A stretch of 64,000 nt of DNA from an uncultured Pseudomonadota bacterium (lineage in GTDB: Bacteria > Babelota > Babeliae > Babelales > JAUPTZ01), in contig CAYSBJ010000001.1 in NCBI GenBank assembly GCA_964429275.1, positions 1 through 64,000 on the forward strand, read 5' to 3'. Positions 1-36,000 of the stretch are shown piece after piece (within the stretch, counting starts at the first letter, position 1; each line of letters opens with the position of its first letter). Position numbers: made by a program.

Positions 1-3000
1 CTAAAAACAATGGTAACCGAGGAACCATCACTCGAAACCGAGGCTGCAGCTGAAGACTCCGCTACGGGCACCGCCCGAGATGCGGGTATAGTCGAAACAT
101 TCGCAGCTGGTGCTGAGAGTAGGGCTTGAGCAGAAGAACCTCCCGCTGCTGAAAGATCCACTGGTGTCACCGAGTGCACAGGTTTCTTAAAGATATCCTT
201 TTGTTGAGGCAAATTGCCGGAAGAAGGGACTGCCATTTCTTGAGACATAAGGCTCTTCGAAGCAGACGGTGCAAGCGCTACAGGCACCACCGGAGAGACT
301 GGTCTAGTCACAACATTCGTAGTTGACGCTAAAGATGGTGCAGAAGGTAGAAGATCCTTAAACTCTTTTTCAAGGGATTCTACGAGGGGTTCAATGTGAT
401 CAGATTCATACCCAAGCTCGCGCAAACTTTGTATTTTCTCCTCACGCGTCGCCTCAACTACCGTTTTTTTCTCAGCATCATTTGCAAAAGACCTATTTTT
501 TAATTCTTCAATAGCACGAATTACTTGAAAAACAGCAGCTATGTGAGGAGTCATATCATCACCTTCCCTACGGCTAAACTGCTGACTGAGTTTCGTAGCC
601 ATTTTGTGCACCTGCTGATTACGAGCGGGCTGGCCTTCTGCGCTCGCTGCCATGGCATTTTCCAAGGCAACACGCAACTCCCCCCCCCCTCCTTCTTTAA
701 TTTCAAGCGGCAGTATGCCGTACGTTTCCCCGTAGAGATTATTCCAACGTTTGGATACTTCTTGATAATATTTAAACACCTGAAAGAGGTCTGCACTCAG
801 AGAAATGAATCCGCCTTCGCCGCCCATCTCATGAGCCTTATCAATCAGTCTAGCGAGGGCCTTTTCAGGTGAATCTTCGCGATTCTCTTGAGCAGCAGAA
901 CCTCCTTCTCCTTCCACTCGCTCATCTTTTCTCAACTCTTCTCCTGAAGCAACGCCTGACTCGGAACGGGCTGCCACTTCTTGAGGCGAAGAAACAACCA
1001 CTCCCGCAGCTGCAACTGAAGGCTGCTCTACGGACACCACCGGAGATTCTAATCTAGTCGCAACAACATTCGCAGCTAGTGGTGAGAGCGGGGTTGCTTC
1101 ACCCAAATTTTCATCACTCGTTTGAGAAGTAGAACTTACCACTACTGGACGAACAGCTGGTATCTCAGAAGACACAGGTTTTAATGGCACGAATGAAGGT
1201 GCGCGTCTCTCCACAGTTAGTTCCGAAATTCGGGCTTGAGAAGTAGAACCTCCCGCTGCTGAAGGAACAGCTAATGTCGCAGCGAGCGAAGGTTTTGATG
1301 GCATTTTTGGTTCACTCGCAACGCGCTCTTCTCGAGAAGAGCGGCCATGAGAGGGATCAACCACTTTCGTAGACGCTGCAAGCACGACTGGTGCAGGTTC
1401 CTCTTGCGCTTCTACCACCGGAGATTCAACTTTTTCGCTTTGCGATTCAAACCCTTGGGAATTGTTAACTGGACTATTTATCCGACTACTGAAGTCTGGT
1501 TCTGTCACAGTGCTTAATGCATCACTGTCGCTGTCAGCATCATCGTCTTCGGCGTCAACACTGGGTGGAACTACAAGAGCACCCTGAGGCTTTTCCTCTT
1601 CCTCTGAGTATCCGCGACCGTTTAGCTCCACCACACCAGCAGCAAGAAATGGTAGCAAGCTTGCCCACAGCAAACGCATCGTTGTCCCACGGTTTTCTCG
1701 AGCTAACATCTTCTTAAAATAAGACTTTTTCAACTTACCCTTTGCAAATAAGTCGACCAGATTTAAGGCGCCGATAAGGCCAAGACCGGCAGCGTACCCG
1801 TGGCGATTTTTTTTGAGATGGGTGCTAACTTTGGCAAATGTCGAAGGCTCTGCTGACGTACCAGTGGTATCCGGAATAGATTGAACAATGCCTGTAATAA
1901 GTGATGCCGCTACTACCAGAAAAAGTAAGCGCTGATGCTTGATGTTCATAAAAGCTCCCATAAAAATTACTGCATAGGCTTTATTCTATACTATTTGGGC
2001 CAAAAAGAACAAGGGATTGGGCAGCACTGGCCTTACCAACGTGATAGTGTCACAACTCTACCAAAATAAAACAACAGGGAGGCCTAGCCCAGGCTCAACT
2101 TAAAACGTAACCCGACAACCGGCGTATACATCGGCTTCTTTTGGCATATTTTGACCAGCAAACGTAAGAGCCGCTCCGGTTCGGATGCTAAGCCAGTCAG
2201 AAAGATGGTACACAACCCCGGCTTTGACCCGGTTGGCAAATTGCTCTGTATTAGCCGCCGCGAGATTGTTATCAAGCGCTATGCTATTATCCACCGTATA
2301 ATCCTGTGTCGTAGAGCTGTACTTCGCGCCAAGCCATGAATCAACGGTGCTTGAGGTAAAACGAACGGTATCTTTCCTCTTCCAATAAAATTGGTAGCCA
2401 ATATAGCCGGTAATGTCAGTTGTTTGTGGATGGCAGAAATGAAGCTCGCCATTTGCTACAACCGAATGCCAACTCACATCAGCCAGCTGAACCGAACCGA
2501 TATTTTTAATCATCGATTCCACTGGCGTCCCACACGTTTTTTCTGTGCGGGCAAGTGCAAAACGATACTCCGCATCAACATGTATCATTAGCCACGAGCG
2601 AGTCTCGGCATTCAAATGAATGCCCGTTCCTATTTCAAAATGGCGTCCATTTCCGGTATGAGACCGGTACGGGTTGCCTGTGTAATTCCCTTCATCCGAG
2701 CCACTACCACATGCGGTTGGCAATCGCAATAAGGCGCTCACGCCCCCCACAATGCGATCACCAAACGAGTGGTCGTAGTAAGCCTCAAGATCAATATCGC
2801 CTAACCCAACTTGGCGTGTCGTTTGAAATATATATCCACGCTCATACAACCACTGATGAGTATTTGCATTGAAACTTGAAATGTAATCTTTAATACCACT
2901 ACTAATACTGCCGGTAGCCGTACCAGATCCATGATAGGCACCGCCGACTTCATGAGTCGAAGTAACCCATACCGTCGCTTTTTTATCCTGATTTGCTACC

Positions 3001-33000: not shown

Positions 33001-36000
33001 AAGGGAGTAATCACCATGTATGAACGGATATGTACTTACCCTCGAACCAGAAATAACACCAGTTTCCGTATTATAAGTACCGGTGAAATCACCAGTGCTA
33101 TTGGTAATCGGATAACTACTTCCAGACGCAGACCCTACTGTCCAATCAGCCTTACCACTTCCCGCAAAAACACCTCCTGCGAGGAAAGCATTTAGAATGC
33201 GAGCACTATACATTTGTTGTACCAGTGGGAGCGGCGGCGTAGTAGCAGGAAGCGACGCTCCTGCTGAAAACGGAATCCACGGGCTACTTGTTAACGGTAG
33301 GTCGTACAACCATTGTGTCCCACTTGCCACATGTTTCCATAAACCAGTCTCTGCTTGCCATAACCATTTTACTTGGTCACTTGCACCAATATGAAAAACC
33401 CAGTACCCGGTCGCCGGATCAAATGTCCAGACCTGACTCCCCCCTGCCGTTTGTGTCCACACTTGCGTTGACGCATTGTACGTCCACGTATTTGTTCCAC
33501 CAACGTTAGTCCATGTACCGGAAGTAAAAGTATACGCCGGTGATCCACTACCAGATGCATACCAAGAGTTGTTACCGCTATTGAGAAGATAAGAAAAATG
33601 TACTGCCGGTGCCGCAGGAGCACTGCTACCATCACTGCGCCATGCAATAACAGTTGTCGTCGTATCCGTTGGAATAGTAAGCGTTGCGCTATCGTTAAAA
33701 AGCCCACCAGACAACGTCCACTGAGCAGCACCAGTTTTTTCTACCACACTTACTGAAGAAAGCTTATTCCACAAAGAATCAAGTATCGCTTTCTGAACTA
33801 CAAACAGAGGCGGCAAGCCAGCAGATGGCTGCCCACTATAGTTGGATATTTGCTGCCAGGATCCCGCAAACATAAGATAGCGCCACACCCAGGCACGATG
33901 CCCGTCATTACAAGACCAGTACCCAGTAGACGGTGTATAAGTCCAAACTGCAGCACCAGAATTTTGAGACCACGTAAGCGCAGTTACATTCGACTGCCAT
34001 GTCGTAAGCGTATCGCTACTCGTCCAGGTGTTTGCATGAAGATCGTACGACCACTGCTCACCAGTTTGCGCATCAATCCAAAAGCCAGTAGTACTGTCAT
34101 ATGCCCAGCTCTCTGACCACTGTGGATTAATCGAACGTGTCCAACTAAAATCACCGGATTGGATGTTATATGAGGCAAGATCTGCAGCACTGTTTGCCAC
34201 CGAATAGTAACTGTTAATAGTCCCCTGGACCACACCAGATACCGTGCTGTACGTTACCGCAAAATCATTAGTACTATTAAGTAGGCTATACAGACCTGCA
34301 GTCTGAGACTGAATTATCCAATCAGTTTTGCCACTTTCAACCAGAGCACCAAGCCCCAGCACAGCATTTAACGTTGACTGCGCATACATTTGCTGCAGAA
34401 TAGGCACTGCTGGTTTAACTGCAATGGTAACAGAACTTGGGTTATAAATAGCCGTCCACGTTTCAGTCGTAAAGTCATATGACCAAGTCGTCGACGATGG
34501 GATGTGCGTCCATTGAAAAGTAACTGGATTCCACTGCCACGCAGGATTACCAGTAATTCCTAGCGTACATACCCAGCAGCCAGTGCTACCGTTATATACC
34601 CATTTTTCTGGAGCTCCTACAGTCACCTGCCAAGTCTTGGTGCTCGGTGTATATACCCACGTACGACCACTCGTCTGATTCCACGTTTGTGTGCTGCCAG
34701 TAAACGAATACGTTCTACCAGTAGTAGTATTTCGCCATGCAATATCACCCGTTATAAGATTCCAGTTCGCGACAAAGATAGAGCTGGCTTGCGGCACCGT
34801 CGAATTGTCTCGCCATGACAAGGAAGCCGATGAACTGGTTGCGCTCAAAATAACCGAATCATTATACGGCCCACCAATAGCGCCCCACTCTACTATTTGC
34901 GAACCATTTGCGACTGTCCGTGATAATGTGTAAGGGGCAGCACTACACCCAACACTTACAAAGACGAGAACTAAACCTACCAGGCACTGCCGTATATTCA
35001 TGAGAGGACTCCATCAATTTCACGTCCCGTGTGGTCAATTTGAATAGAAGGAATGGTTACGTAGCCATTCGGAGGAAAACCAAACTGACTCAACACTGAA
35101 ACAAAACTCAGCTCACCTTCAATATCCAGTGCATGCTCACCATCTAAACAGCGTGCATCAGATCCTTCATTTAAAATCGGATTTCCATACCGATCAATTA
35201 CAATTGATTCTGTCGCTGAGAGCACTCCATTGCTATCAAGCACTGGACAAAAAGTACCATCGTATACTCCAACACCAATCGTAACATCAAGCGTTTCTGC
35301 ACCAGTGTCAGAATCGGTAGCAACTTCATTTACTATAGTTCCAGAATCAGAGGCAGCGCCACAGCGGAAAAAACAGCCTGCAGTACCTTCTAATACTATT
35401 GTGGCAAAACTCGTACCGGCATAAGACATGTCATATGATACGTTAGCTGAAGCACCATATGTGCCCAGTTCATCAATAATGAACGCCGAAGGATTGTGCA
35501 ATTTTACCGTAGAAGTAGTCCCCGCGCTTCCACCAAGCTGCAAAGGATCCACCGCCTGATTGGTTGTACCAGCAACGTAATCCAAAAAAAGATTATGCCG
35601 TATACGCAACTGCCCATTATCACCCAAAATAAAACCTGGTTGATACCCTTTAATTTTTTGTGAAGCCGCCCAATCGCTTGTTTCAAGAGAAGGTGCATGC
35701 GATAAATTTGAAGCTAAATATGGATACGTAGTATTGTTGTTAACAACTACAAGCCCACGCCGCATACTTGCATCACGATCAAGCCACGCGGGCAGATCTG
35801 CTTCTACATCCTCAACTAAAGTGCTATAGGCAAGATCATCGACGATACTAACTAGTGCAAGCATACCTGCTCGCTTATTAGGGAAGACATTTTCACGCAA
35901 GTCAGTTGCAATTACTGCACCACTTTCGCCAGTGCCAACTACCAACGATCCCCAAATATTAATTCCTGCATCAGAGCCAAGGCCAGAAATAATCCCTGGT

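What a model noticed while it worked through the whole genome (the two positions that open the first line are those of the whole stretch)
2100..34797. Pfam-less outer-membrane barrels paired with beta-helical giants, one of 8540 residues: split autotransporter-like expor [...]
A predicted 590-aa outer-membrane beta-barrel without any family match (g00002) lies head-to-tail with a 1730-aa and an 8540-aa secreted-type protein (g00003, g00004), and the pair barrel + giant recurs as paralogues at g00054-g00055 and, with another barrel family, at g00433-g00438 around four beta-helix proteins. I read these as two-gene export units in which a FapF-like barrel takes a separately encoded beta-solenoid 'passenger' to the cell surface, a split version of the autotransporter that lacks the POTRA/Omp85 partner of classical two-partner secretion. 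They would be the adhesins or host-contact fibres of this wall-less parasite, and g00004 is among the largest bacterial proteins.
Evidence so far: genes.tsv: g00004 C1:9175-34797, 8540 aa, one open frame; T 12%, S 11%, G 8%, no internal repeat by BLASTP. BLASTP families: g00002/g00054; g00003/5/6/55/64 (882-1779 aa); g00433/g00438; g00434/435/436/g00037. g00054 with 14 relatives (30-78% identity, none with a family): AlphaFold2 pLDDT 73.8, long antiparallel strands over 46-190 and 370-604; best PDB matches FapF 5o67_B E 1.1e-7 and the COG4313 channel 4rl8 (TM on target 0.75-0.77), autotransporter barrels EspP/EstA follow. g00435: 3-5-residue strands in solenoid rhythm, pLDDT about 72-91 over 100-300 and 680-900. 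All but g00004 have signal-like N-termini and the barrels end in an aromatic residue. Pfam at E<=0.01: nothing for g00001-3, [...]
(Added by a program. Inside this text positions count along the whole contig: contig position 1 is position 1 of the stretch shown here. "Call 12" and the like, gene names such as g00115 and contig names such as C1 are that model's own, and its searches are not shown. The text may have been shortened before it was handed on; [...] marks where a part breaks off. The agent that wrote the report below was given it as the finding of a first reader that could run no searches.)

Follow-up and report, generated by a model that had tools for sequence, protein, structure and literature searches.

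The report
Dependentiae barrel–cargo gene pair plus giant
A family-less outer-membrane barrel is almost always encoded next to one kind of large secreted protein in Dependentiae parasites, and in this genus the same operon also holds a 947-kDa tryptophan-repeat protein, so this is probably an undescribed surface-protein export or anchoring unit.

Summary
The ORFs are real, but the finding needs re-centring. The 590-aa protein models as a 12-stranded barrel. Its best fold matches are the COG4313 channel (Z 25.0) and FapF (Z 24.1), with about 195 extra residues in a predicted outward-facing loop.

Its conserved partner is the 1733-aa protein upstream, not the giant. That protein has three domains (A-B-C). 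The C domain and the barrel co-occur in Dependentiae genomes: of 261, 144 have both, 12 the barrel only, 0 the C domain only, 105 neither. They lie within 131 bp on one strand in 38 of 40 regions I inspected.

The giant is 8608 aa from ATG 35001, where it has a signal peptide. These are built on a 9-residue tryptophan repeat and model as antiparallel beta-meanders plus helices, not a beta-helix. It ends in a B domain and is a genus-specific addition.

Export through the barrel versus mere anchoring is unresolved; the complex prediction gave no answer. No known family matches by sequence. I rate it a new variant of barrel-plus-cargo systems, with interest about 0.7.

The parts
2100..3872 (-). 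590-aa outer-membrane barrel. It has a signal peptide, a conserved mature N-terminus (A..R.P), 12 transmembrane strands and a terminal Phe.
   Evidence: AF2 pLDDT 84. VIA: 4rl8 Z 25.0 (rmsd 2.3, 259 of 267 aligned) and FapF Z 24.1. Foldseek agrees. The family is found in 156 of 261 Dependentiae genomes. Conservation is mapped.
2820..3407 (-). About 195-aa insertion (residues 156-351) between strands 3 and 4 of the barrel. It is predicted to face outward, assuming the N-terminus is periplasmic.
   Evidence: The order of secondary-structure elements shows short turns on one side and long loops on the other. The insertion is retained across 46 barrels, with occupancy 0.6-1.0.
3902..9103 (-). 1733-aa secreted A-B-C protein (1730 aa from ATG 9094). 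This is the barrel's conserved partner.
   Evidence: Domain map from BLASTP and HMMs. The signal peptide is visible. The gene lies 29 bp upstream of the barrel gene.
3905..5854 (-). C domain (residues 1084-1733). This is the domain that travels with the barrel.
   Evidence: Alignment A2. 81 protein clusters carry it. It is next to a barrel in 38 of 40 regions. Phyletic pattern: 144 both, 12 barrel only, 0 C only, 105 neither.
5894..7294 (-). B domain of the 1733-aa protein (residues 604-1070).
   Evidence: It is homologous to giant residues 8184-8604 and to residues 764-1125 of the 1171-aa protein.
7280..8848 (-). A domain of the 1733-aa protein (residues 86-608).
   Evidence: It is homologous to residues 372-881 of the 886-aa protein and residues 122-707 of the 1171-aa protein.
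9133..9160 (-). Promoter-like site (TTGACA, 16 nt spacer, GATTAT) in the 71-bp gap between the giant and the 1733-aa gene.
   Evidence: This is a consensus match only; the number of such sites in the region does not exceed that in shuffled sequence.
9175..35001 (-). Giant ORF of 8608 aa (947 kDa, pI 4.6, Trp 6.4 %). It takes 2.1 % of the genome.
   Evidence: The same letters stand in contigs of two public DNA runs, one of which may be the source. A 6297-aa orthologue sits in genome G115 in the same operon.
34939..35001 (-). Signal peptide of the giant, with Cys19 that fits a loose lipobox.
   Evidence: the Cys is conserved in the G115 orthologue, but the lipobox there is atypical. Lgt and LspA are present in the genome.
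10441..34815 (-). About 21 tandem ~390-aa tryptophan-repeat modules (residues 63-8187). Each has two beta-meander halves, and each half ends in a helix that begins with a PPL motif.
   Evidence: phmmer. 247 of 552 Trp-Trp spacings are exactly 9 residues. PPL motifs recur every ~190-200 residues. AF2 of one module gives pLDDT 85.1 and pTM 0.80.
9178..10422 (-). C-terminal B domain of the giant (residues 8194-8608), ending in a polybasic tail encoded at 9178-9225.
34998..37658 (-). 886-aa secreted protein made of a partial Trp-module and an A domain. Its stop overlaps the giant's start by 4 bp.
   Evidence: An orthologue holds the same position in G115.
37655..41170 (-). 1171-aa secreted A-B protein, the first gene of the operon. 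It overlaps the next gene by 4 bp. Hairpins lie in the 103-bp gap upstream.
   Evidence: An orthologue is present in G115.

Best explanation
The core is a two-gene unit specific to Dependentiae. A Sec-exported A-B-C protein of 1,000-2,000 residues is encoded directly upstream of a cognate 12-stranded barrel with the FapF/COG4313 fold. That barrel carries a conserved N-terminal segment and a large outward-facing loop domain.

I propose that the barrel is the dedicated outer-membrane partner of the C domain. It would let the unfolded protein through, as FapF does for FapC and autotransporter barrels do for their passengers. Its surface loop domain would then hold the protein at the cell surface.

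In this genus three further secreted proteins were added upstream: A-B, Trp-module-A, and 21 Trp-modules-B. They would join the anchored A-B-C protein through like-with-like A and B domain contacts. The result would be a ~1-MDa tryptophan-repeat fibre on the surface, used for host contact.

Shown: the ORFs, the barrel fold, the domain sharing, the repeat architecture, and the conserved adjacency and co-occurrence of barrel and C domain.

Inferred: surface location, passage through the barrel, docking, A-A and B-B assembly, and the host-contact role.
For: - Barrel model: 12 strands, pLDDT 84. The best fold matches stand apart from the rest: COG4313 channel Z 25.0 and FapF Z 24.1, with the next at 17.9.
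- FapF secretes unfolded substrate through such a barrel (PMC5557850, passages read).
- Adjacency: 38 of 40 regions from 38 genomes have a C-domain ORF on the same strand with a gap of -44 to 131 bp. It is upstream in 36, on both sides in 1, and downstream in 1.
- The own-genome paralogue pair is 9 bp apart. Six of 6 informative genome-contig loci are also paired, though three of those are the same genomes as G handles.
- Co-occurrence in 261 genomes: 144 both, 12 barrel only, 0 C only, 105 neither, compared by hand from the rows.
- The pair was duplicated as a unit, with the gene order reversed.
- All five operon proteins have signal peptides and are acidic and rich in Ser, Thr, Gly and Asn.
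- The operon holds three A domains and three B domains on different proteins. The same five-gene order is kept in G115 at 67 % barrel identity.
- BamA is present to insert the barrel, and barrels end in Phe in 39 of 44.
Against: - There is no direct evidence that any of these proteins is on the surface or passes through the barrel.
- The best fold match, COG4313, is an uptake channel for hydrophobic molecules, not an exporter (PMC4493636).
- The barrel lacks FapF's periplasmic coiled coil.
- Three secretins in the genome offer another export route.
- No fused passenger-barrel form was found (weak evidence).
- The giant lacks the C domain, so its link to the barrel rests only on operon membership and a shared B domain.
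- 105 of 261 Dependentiae genomes lack the pair altogether.
- The 40 regions were picked by me from the listed matches to spread over families. They are related genomes, not independent samples.
Confidence: 0.5

Rival explanations
1. The barrel is only an anchor or dock. The A-B-C protein and its companions reach the surface by another route, such as a secretin-based type II system. The barrel's outward-facing ~195-aa loop domain merely holds the C domain at the surface.
For: More than half of the barrel's residues lie in predicted outward loops, which is unusual for pure translocators. Three secretin genes are present. A 12-strand lumen occluded by an N-terminal segment is narrow.
Against: Secretin systems export folded proteins of ordinary size, and no such system is linked to these loci. 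FapF and autotransporter barrels of the same size do pass polypeptides. The strict gene order, cargo then barrel, resembles translocator-cargo operons.
Confidence: 0.2
2. The barrel is an uptake channel for hydrophobic, host-derived molecules, like COG4313 channels. The A-B-C protein would be its surface partner that captures or delivers the ligand, by the same logic as barrel-plus-surface-protein nutrient systems.
For: The top fold match is the COG4313 channel (Z 25.0, rmsd 2.3 over 259 of 267 residues). That family takes up hydrophobic molecules. Dependentiae depend on the host for most metabolites (PMC6561590).
Against: There is no sequence match to PF13557. Many Dependentiae lack LPS, which is the barrier that makes such channels necessary. 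A partner of 1,000-2,000 residues with fibre-like accessory proteins is not what known uptake channels carry.
Confidence: 0.12
3. The complex is an envelope scaffold on the periplasmic side. In a cell with little or no peptidoglycan, the barrel would tie the outer membrane to large periplasmic beta-rich proteins.
For: The genome has no PBP transpeptidase hit and only one Mur-ligase hit. The surface location of the large proteins is not shown.
Against: The long loops of the barrel sit on the side opposite its termini, which by standard outer-membrane protein topology is the outside. Periplasmic space is small for a 947-kDa repeat protein. The composition resembles surface adhesins.
Confidence: 0.08
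4. The barrel is an ordinary porin that merely happens to lie beside large genes.
For: There is no family match, and porin-like paralogue clusters exist elsewhere in the genome.
Against: The adjacency holds in 38 of 40 regions across many families. The C domain is never found without the barrel in 261 genomes.
Confidence: 0.02

Closest known systems
FapF / Fap functional-amyloid secretion of Pseudomonas
   Same: It is a 12-stranded barrel whose N-terminal segment can occlude the lumen. It is encoded in one operon with Sec-dependent substrates that cross the outer membrane unfolded. The fold match is Z 24.1, rmsd 2.5, 256 of 276 residues aligned.
   Different: There is no sequence similarity. 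Only ~22 residues lie between the signal peptide and strand 1, so there is no periplasmic coiled coil. Neighbouring genes show no C39 peptidase or any other Pfam family. The cargo is 1,000-2,000 residues, not a small amyloid subunit. The barrel has an extra ~195-aa loop domain. Trimer formation was not tested.
COG4313 outer-membrane channels (Pput2725; Pfam Phenol_MetA_deg)
   Same: This is the best structural match: Z 25.0, rmsd 2.3, 259 of 267 residues aligned. It is a 12-strand barrel with a short N-terminal segment that occludes the lumen.
   Different: PF13557 does not match. The known function is uptake of hydrophobic small molecules by a monomer of ~270 residues. No conserved giant partner gene is mentioned in the passages read.
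Classical autotransporters (type Va)
   Same: The order along the DNA is large secreted passenger first, 12-stranded barrel second. Both depend on Sec and BamA. Fold matches to BrkA, Hbp and NalP barrels reach Z 17.6.
   Different: There are two polypeptides, not one. PF03797 is absent. No fused form was found. The barrel fold is closer to FapF/COG4313. The paralogous pair has the reverse gene order.
Two-partner secretion (type Vb)
   Same: There are two adjacent genes: a very large secreted protein and an outer-membrane barrel dedicated to it.
   Different: By my recollection of the family definition, the TpsB transporter is a 16-strand Omp85 protein with POTRA domains, and the cargo carries an N-terminal TPS domain. 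Here the barrel has 12 strands, the conserved barrel-linked domain is C-terminal, and no TPS domain passes the cut-off.
SprB with its cognate PorP/SprF-like barrel in type IX secretion (recalled, not read here)
   Same: A several-thousand-residue repetitive surface protein has a small dedicated barrel gene next to it.
   Different: There is no PorP_SprF match in the genome. The SprA_N search gave nothing, but its control was silent, so that result is uninformative. The phylum is different.

Membership tests
Classical autotransporter (type Va) | C-terminal beta-domain recognised by Pfam PF03797 | tested here: not met
   The barrel has no Pfam hit. PF03797 has no hit anywhere in the genome, which is 98 % complete.
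Classical autotransporter (type Va) | Passenger and barrel in one polypeptide | tested here: not met
   They are separate ORFs with a 29-bp gap. All 46 barrel ORFs inspected are 575-732 aa. No longer homologue was found (weak evidence).
Classical autotransporter (type Va) | 12-stranded barrel | tested here: met
   The AF2 model has 12 long strands. Matches to autotransporter barrels reach Z 16-17.6.
FapF family | 12-stranded barrel fold with N-terminal plug | tested here: inconclusive
   The barrel fold matches (Z 24.1). The N-terminal 40 residues have pLDDT 33-64, so their position in the lumen is not established.
FapF family | Periplasmic N-terminal coiled-coil domain | tested here: not met
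   The first strand starts at residue 48 after a ~25-residue signal peptide.
FapF family | fap operon partners (amyloid subunits, C39 peptidase FapD) | tested here: not met
   None of the neighbouring ORFs in the cluster has a Pfam or NCBIfam family.
FapF family | Trimeric assembly | not tested
   No oligomer prediction was run.
COG4313 / Phenol_MetA_deg (PF13557) | Match to the family profile | tested here: not met
   Searches gave no match at E <= 1. A profile built on 19 relatives finds no PDB sequence.
COG4313 / Phenol_MetA_deg (PF13557) | Fold: 12 strands with a short N-terminal segment before strand 1 | tested here: met
   Z 25.0, rmsd 2.3, 259 of 267 residues aligned, model range 32-590.
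Two-partner secretion (type Vb) | Omp85/POTRA transporter next to the cargo | tested here: not met
   The only strong Omp85 hit is an 827-aa BamA-like ORF at C1:383032-384084.
Two-partner secretion (type Vb) | N-terminal TPS domain on the cargo | tested here: not met
   There is no Pfam hit on the large proteins. The only TPS hit is below the cut-off, on a 3-kb contig of different composition.
Type IX PorP/SprF barrels | Match to PF11751 and presence of the SprA translocon | tested here: inconclusive
   PF11751 gave no match. SprA_N gave no match, but the control genomes were silent too.
Tubby-like / LURP-one fold (for each half of the giant's module) | 12-stranded closed meander wrapped round a C-terminal helix | tested here: inconclusive
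   Twelve short strands (residues 14-124) are followed by a helix at 138-155. The matches are At5g01750 (Z 6.5, 119 aligned) and tubby (Z 5.1, 126 aligned). Both are below the level at which such matches are reliable.

The most novel reading that the evidence does not exclude
Dependentiae have their own, undescribed outer-membrane secretion-and-display system. A plugged 12-strand barrel with a surface cap would translocate and then hold a C-domain 'stalk' protein. Proteins carrying matching A or B domains would plug into that stalk combinatorially. In this genus the result would be a ~1-MDa fibre of about 42 small tryptophan-ladder domains of a fold not yet seen, serving as the long-sought host-attachment organelle of these parasites of protists.
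Probability: 0.3. Interest if true: 0.85.

Novelty: new variant of a known kind. Interest (0 to 1): 0.7.

Why it matters
Dependentiae are widespread obligate parasites of protists. How they attach to and enter hosts is unknown. The two genome papers I read passages of mention only Sec, type II/type IV-pilus parts and 'surface antigens of unknown function'.

A family-less barrel-plus-cargo pair is present in more than half of the phylum's genomes, and the two genes are never separated in occurrence. That makes it a concrete, testable candidate for their surface apparatus.

It would also extend the use of small 12-strand barrels for protein display beyond autotransporters and the Fap system. The giant adds a rare repeat module: only 10 clusters at E <= 1e-30 among 1.84 billion representative proteins. 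It has a strict 9-residue tryptophan rhythm and no convincing structural relative.

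Tried and rejected
- **Complex prediction** of barrel residues 26-590 with C-domain residues 216-650, each with its own alignment: score 0.00, verdict 'no answer'. It says nothing either way. The full 650-residue C domain did not fit the size limit.
- **ESM Atlas** on the 1733-aa protein and on a relative: only scores of 0.78-0.84 (phage hypotheticals, 'beta strand repeat', 'pertactin central region'), no structure held. These are leads only.
- **Sequence searches of the PDB** with profiles of the barrel and of the A-B-C family: nothing meaningful.
- **Pfam and NCBIfam** on all cluster ORFs: nothing.
- **Search for longer, fused barrel forms:** none found, which is weak evidence.
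- **BLASTP self-comparison of the giant** shows only the identity hit. The repeats appear only with phmmer/HMM.
- **Weak hits of the module profile (E > 1e-10)** are tectonin, kelch, Ig or subtilase proteins and are not relatives.
- **No RNA holder is listed** among public runs, so expression could not be examined.
- **Laying two DNA runs** showed the same letters and no variant. One run may be the source, and both come from one study.
- **No 16S rRNA and no tRNA** were found in the genome or window searches. Taxon assignment rests on names attached to homologues.
- **The SprA_N search** had a silent control.

Full report
**What is there.**
The window is the start of a 570-kb contig of a 1.21-Mb, 98 %-complete metagenome-assembled genome. 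Homologues of its proteins carry the names Candidatus Dependentiae or Babeliales. Between 41170 and 2100 five minus-strand ORFs follow each other:
- 1171 aa (37655-41170)
- 886 aa (34998-37658)
- the giant (9175-35001)
- 1733 aa (3902-9103; 1730 aa from ATG 9094)
- 590 aa (2100-3872)

The first three overlap by 4 bp each. The remaining gaps are 71 bp and 29 bp. None of the five matches Pfam or NCBIfam. All have signal-peptide-like N-termini.

The frame opens at ATG 35001 and begins MNIRQCLVGLVLVFVSVGC. That N-terminus is conserved in the 6297-aa orthologue of the congeneric genome G115. Cys19 fits a loose lipobox, and Lgt and LspA are present. The orthologue's box is atypical, so I leave lipidation open.

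**The barrel.**
I built an alignment of 19 relatives. With it, AlphaFold2 gives pLDDT 84 and pTM 0.76, with twelve long strands. An all-against-representatives structural search puts two chains clearly first:
- the COG4313 channel 4rl8: Z 25.0, rmsd 2.3, 259 of 267 residues aligned
- FapF 5o65: Z 24.1, rmsd 2.5, 256 of 276 residues aligned

Next come the KdgM/NanC porins (Z 17-18) and the autotransporter barrels BrkA, Hbp and NalP (Z 17.6). Foldseek agrees.

There is no sequence-level link to any solved structure or to PF13557 or PF03797.

The turns on one side of the barrel are 3-6 residues long. The loops on the other side are long, including ~195 residues between strands 3 and 4. By ordinary outer-membrane protein topology, more than half of the protein therefore faces outward. 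This insertion is kept across 46 family members, as are an A..R.P motif at the mature N-terminus and a terminal aromatic residue (F in 39 of 44).

The two best fold matches do opposite things. FapF is a trimer with a helical plug and a periplasmic coiled coil, and it secretes unfolded FapC (PMC5557850, passages). Pput2725 is a monomer whose first 14 residues occlude the lumen, and it is thought to take up hydrophobic molecules (PMC4493636, abstract and passages). The fold alone therefore does not give the direction of transport. The present barrel has no room for a coiled coil.

**The real partner.**
BLASTP and HMMs divide the large proteins into shared domains:

| Protein | Domains |
|---|---|
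| 1733 aa | A-B-C |
| 1171 aa | A-B |
| 886 aa | part of a Trp-module + A |
| giant (8608 aa) | ~21 Trp-modules + B |
| 1190 aa (C1:100488-104060) | N-terminal part + C |
| 1790 aa (C1:116498-121870) | N-terminal part + C |

The barrel paralogue (C1:98607-100478, 31 % identical) lies 9 bp upstream of the 1190-aa C-domain protein. What recurs with the barrel is therefore the C domain.

I tested this in other genomes.
- **Distribution.** A profile of the barrel finds it in 156 of 261 genomes of the phylum (121 of 189 high-quality ones). A profile of the C domain finds it in 144 of 261.
- **Co-occurrence.** I compared the two genome lists by hand. 144 genomes have both, 12 have the barrel only (several of those are weak barrel hits or fragmented assemblies), none has the C domain only, and 105 have neither. 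The per-family tallies are almost identical in the two searches.
- **Adjacency.** I fetched 40 stretches of about 20 kb around barrel hits in 38 genomes. I chose them from the listed matches to spread over families, with enough contig on both sides, and dropped none afterwards. In 38 of the 40, a C-domain ORF lies on the same strand with a gap of -44 to 131 bp. It is upstream of the barrel in 36, on both sides in one, and downstream in one.
- **Exceptions.** In one region a 713-aa ORF sits between the two genes. In one region (genome G025, which also lacks any C-domain hit) the barrel stands alone.
- **Other details.** Four regions have two barrels in tandem after the A-B-C gene. Six of six informative genome-contig loci show the same pairing, but three of them belong to genomes already counted.

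Related genomes are not independent. Even so, the pattern holds across most families of the order, including through the duplication that reversed the gene order.

**The giant.**
In fact tryptophan makes up 6-7.5 % of every 200-residue window until residue 8200, then drops to about 1 %. Of 552 Trp-to-Trp spacings, 247 are exactly nine residues. The consensus is W-T-Y-D/N-x-G-T-x-T.

PPL motifs recur every 190-200 residues and QQxY motifs about every 390. phmmer with one 392-residue unit finds 21 tandem copies covering residues 63-8187. Nineteen have E 1e-77 to 1e-140 and two are degenerate. The copies are 33-54 % identical (mean 41 %). They are therefore old duplications, not an assembly artefact. 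The same letters stand in contigs of two public DNA runs, of which one may be the source and both are from one study.

AlphaFold2 on one module, using the 19 copies as the alignment, gives pLDDT 85.1 and pTM 0.80. The order of elements is:
- twelve 3-7-residue strands, then a helix starting at the PPL motif
- about fifteen strands, then a second helix
- a small terminal sheet

No solved structure matches at Z >= 8. The best matches are:
- meander sheets: CPAP G-box (Z 7.7), phage spikes, OspA
- Rhs/teneurin shells, by Foldseek only, at E about 1e-4 with TM <= 0.19
- for the first half, the tubby-like At5g01750 protein (Z 6.5, 119 residues)

This is an antiparallel architecture, possibly small closed meanders round a helix. 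It is not a beta-solenoid.

The module is rare. Among 1.84 billion representative proteins, 38 score E <= 1e-3 and 10 score E <= 1e-30. The weak hits are unrelated Trp-containing repeat proteins.

I mapped domains on 17 of the hits:
- The common form has 3-5 module stretches plus a B domain (1229-1804 aa).
- Larger ones have 9 stretches (4060 aa), 16 (6297 aa, the G115 orthologue) and 28 stretches with a C domain (7212 aa).

The 8608-aa protein is thus an expanded member of a small family. Module number differs between two species of one genus. Eight of the 11 module-plus-B proteins, including this one, end in a polybasic tail after a conserved ..VK motif. I have no explanation for that tail.

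**How it probably works.**
*Shown:* the five genes, the barrel fold, the shared domains, the repeat architecture, and the near-obligate linkage of barrel and C domain.

*Inferred:* I think the barrel is the dedicated outer-membrane partner of the C-domain protein. It would let the protein through unfolded, as FapF and autotransporter barrels do, and hold it through the outward loop domain. The three upstream proteins of this genus would attach to it through A-A and B-B contacts; the operon holds exactly three A and three B domains. This would put a ~1-MDa Trp-repeat fibre on the surface of a cell that seems to make little or no peptidoglycan (one Mur-ligase hit, no PBP).

I give this composite reading about 0.5. 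The rivals are:

| Rival | Confidence |
|---|---|
| Barrel docks only; export by one of three secretins | 0.2 |
| COG4313-like uptake channel with a surface partner | 0.12 |
| Periplasmic scaffold | 0.08 |
| Chance adjacency | 0.02 |

The complex prediction I could run gave no answer.

**Comparison and novelty.**
By sequence the unit belongs to no known system. It fails the defining features of autotransporters (one polypeptide, PF03797). It fails those of FapF (coiled coil, fap partners). It also fails those of COG4313 (family profile) and of two-partner secretion (Omp85/POTRA, TPS domain). It works most like a Fap- or type V-style barrel-plus-cargo pair.

Three full-text searches combined Dependentiae with secretion and outer-membrane terms, with 'giant protein', and with autotransporter, adhesin and beta-barrel terms. 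None turned up a description of it. In the two Dependentiae genome papers I read only passages found by term search. Their supplements were not opened and might list these genes as hypothetical proteins.

I rate it a new variant of a known kind, with interest 0.7.

Noticed in passing
window 9178-9225 (-); also proteins P0104, P0106, P0108, P0110, P0111, P0113, P0116: Module-plus-B proteins end in a polybasic tail after a conserved ..VK motif; the giant ends KGGSRRRKKTGHSRKR. Eight of 11 such proteins have it. The A-B protein and the C-domain proteins do not. Its role is unknown; it could be a sorting signal, a membrane or nucleic-acid binder, or a protease site.
   Followed up: partly
window 41274-60056 (-): A further run of family-less ORFs with signal-peptide-like starts (574, 333, 193, 304, 549, 500, 903, 530, 597 and 803 aa). 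The 500-aa ORF at 49880-51382 is distantly related to a cluster of seven ~515-665-aa paralogues ending in Phe on C2:195872-211968, probably a porin-like family.
   Followed up: partly
own genome C1:111385-116221 (-), outside the window: Two ORFs of 831 and 776 aa, ending ..VTYRF and ..LTYLF, lie divergently upstream of the 1790-aa C-domain protein, which has no FapF-like barrel beside it. They may be another kind of barrel partner.
   Followed up: no
ORFs of 485 and 512 aa ending in Phe lie among ORFs of 1204, 344, 961, 1054 and 402 aa. The 512-aa ORF gives only a marginal hit to the barrel profile (E 9e-4).
   Followed up: partly
loci L011, L017, L026, L035; L021: In four of 40 regions the A-B-C gene is followed by two barrel genes in tandem. 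In L021 one barrel is flanked by two ~980-aa C-domain proteins.
   Followed up: no
own genome contigs C4-C7 (60-70 % GC) and C8: The small contigs differ strongly in composition from the 46 % GC main contigs and are probably contamination. The only TPS-like hit in the assembly, below the cut-off, lies on C8.
   Followed up: no
own genome, whole: No PBP transpeptidase and only one Mur-ligase-type ORF were found, whereas BamA, three secretins, Lgt and LspA are present. The envelope appears to have an outer membrane but little or no peptidoglycan synthesis.
   Followed up: partly
window 3-1961 (-): A 653+-aa signal-peptide ORF downstream of the barrel is cut by the contig start. It has relatives beside the barrel in L001, but not in L002 or more distant loci, so it is not part of the conserved unit.
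   Followed up: partly
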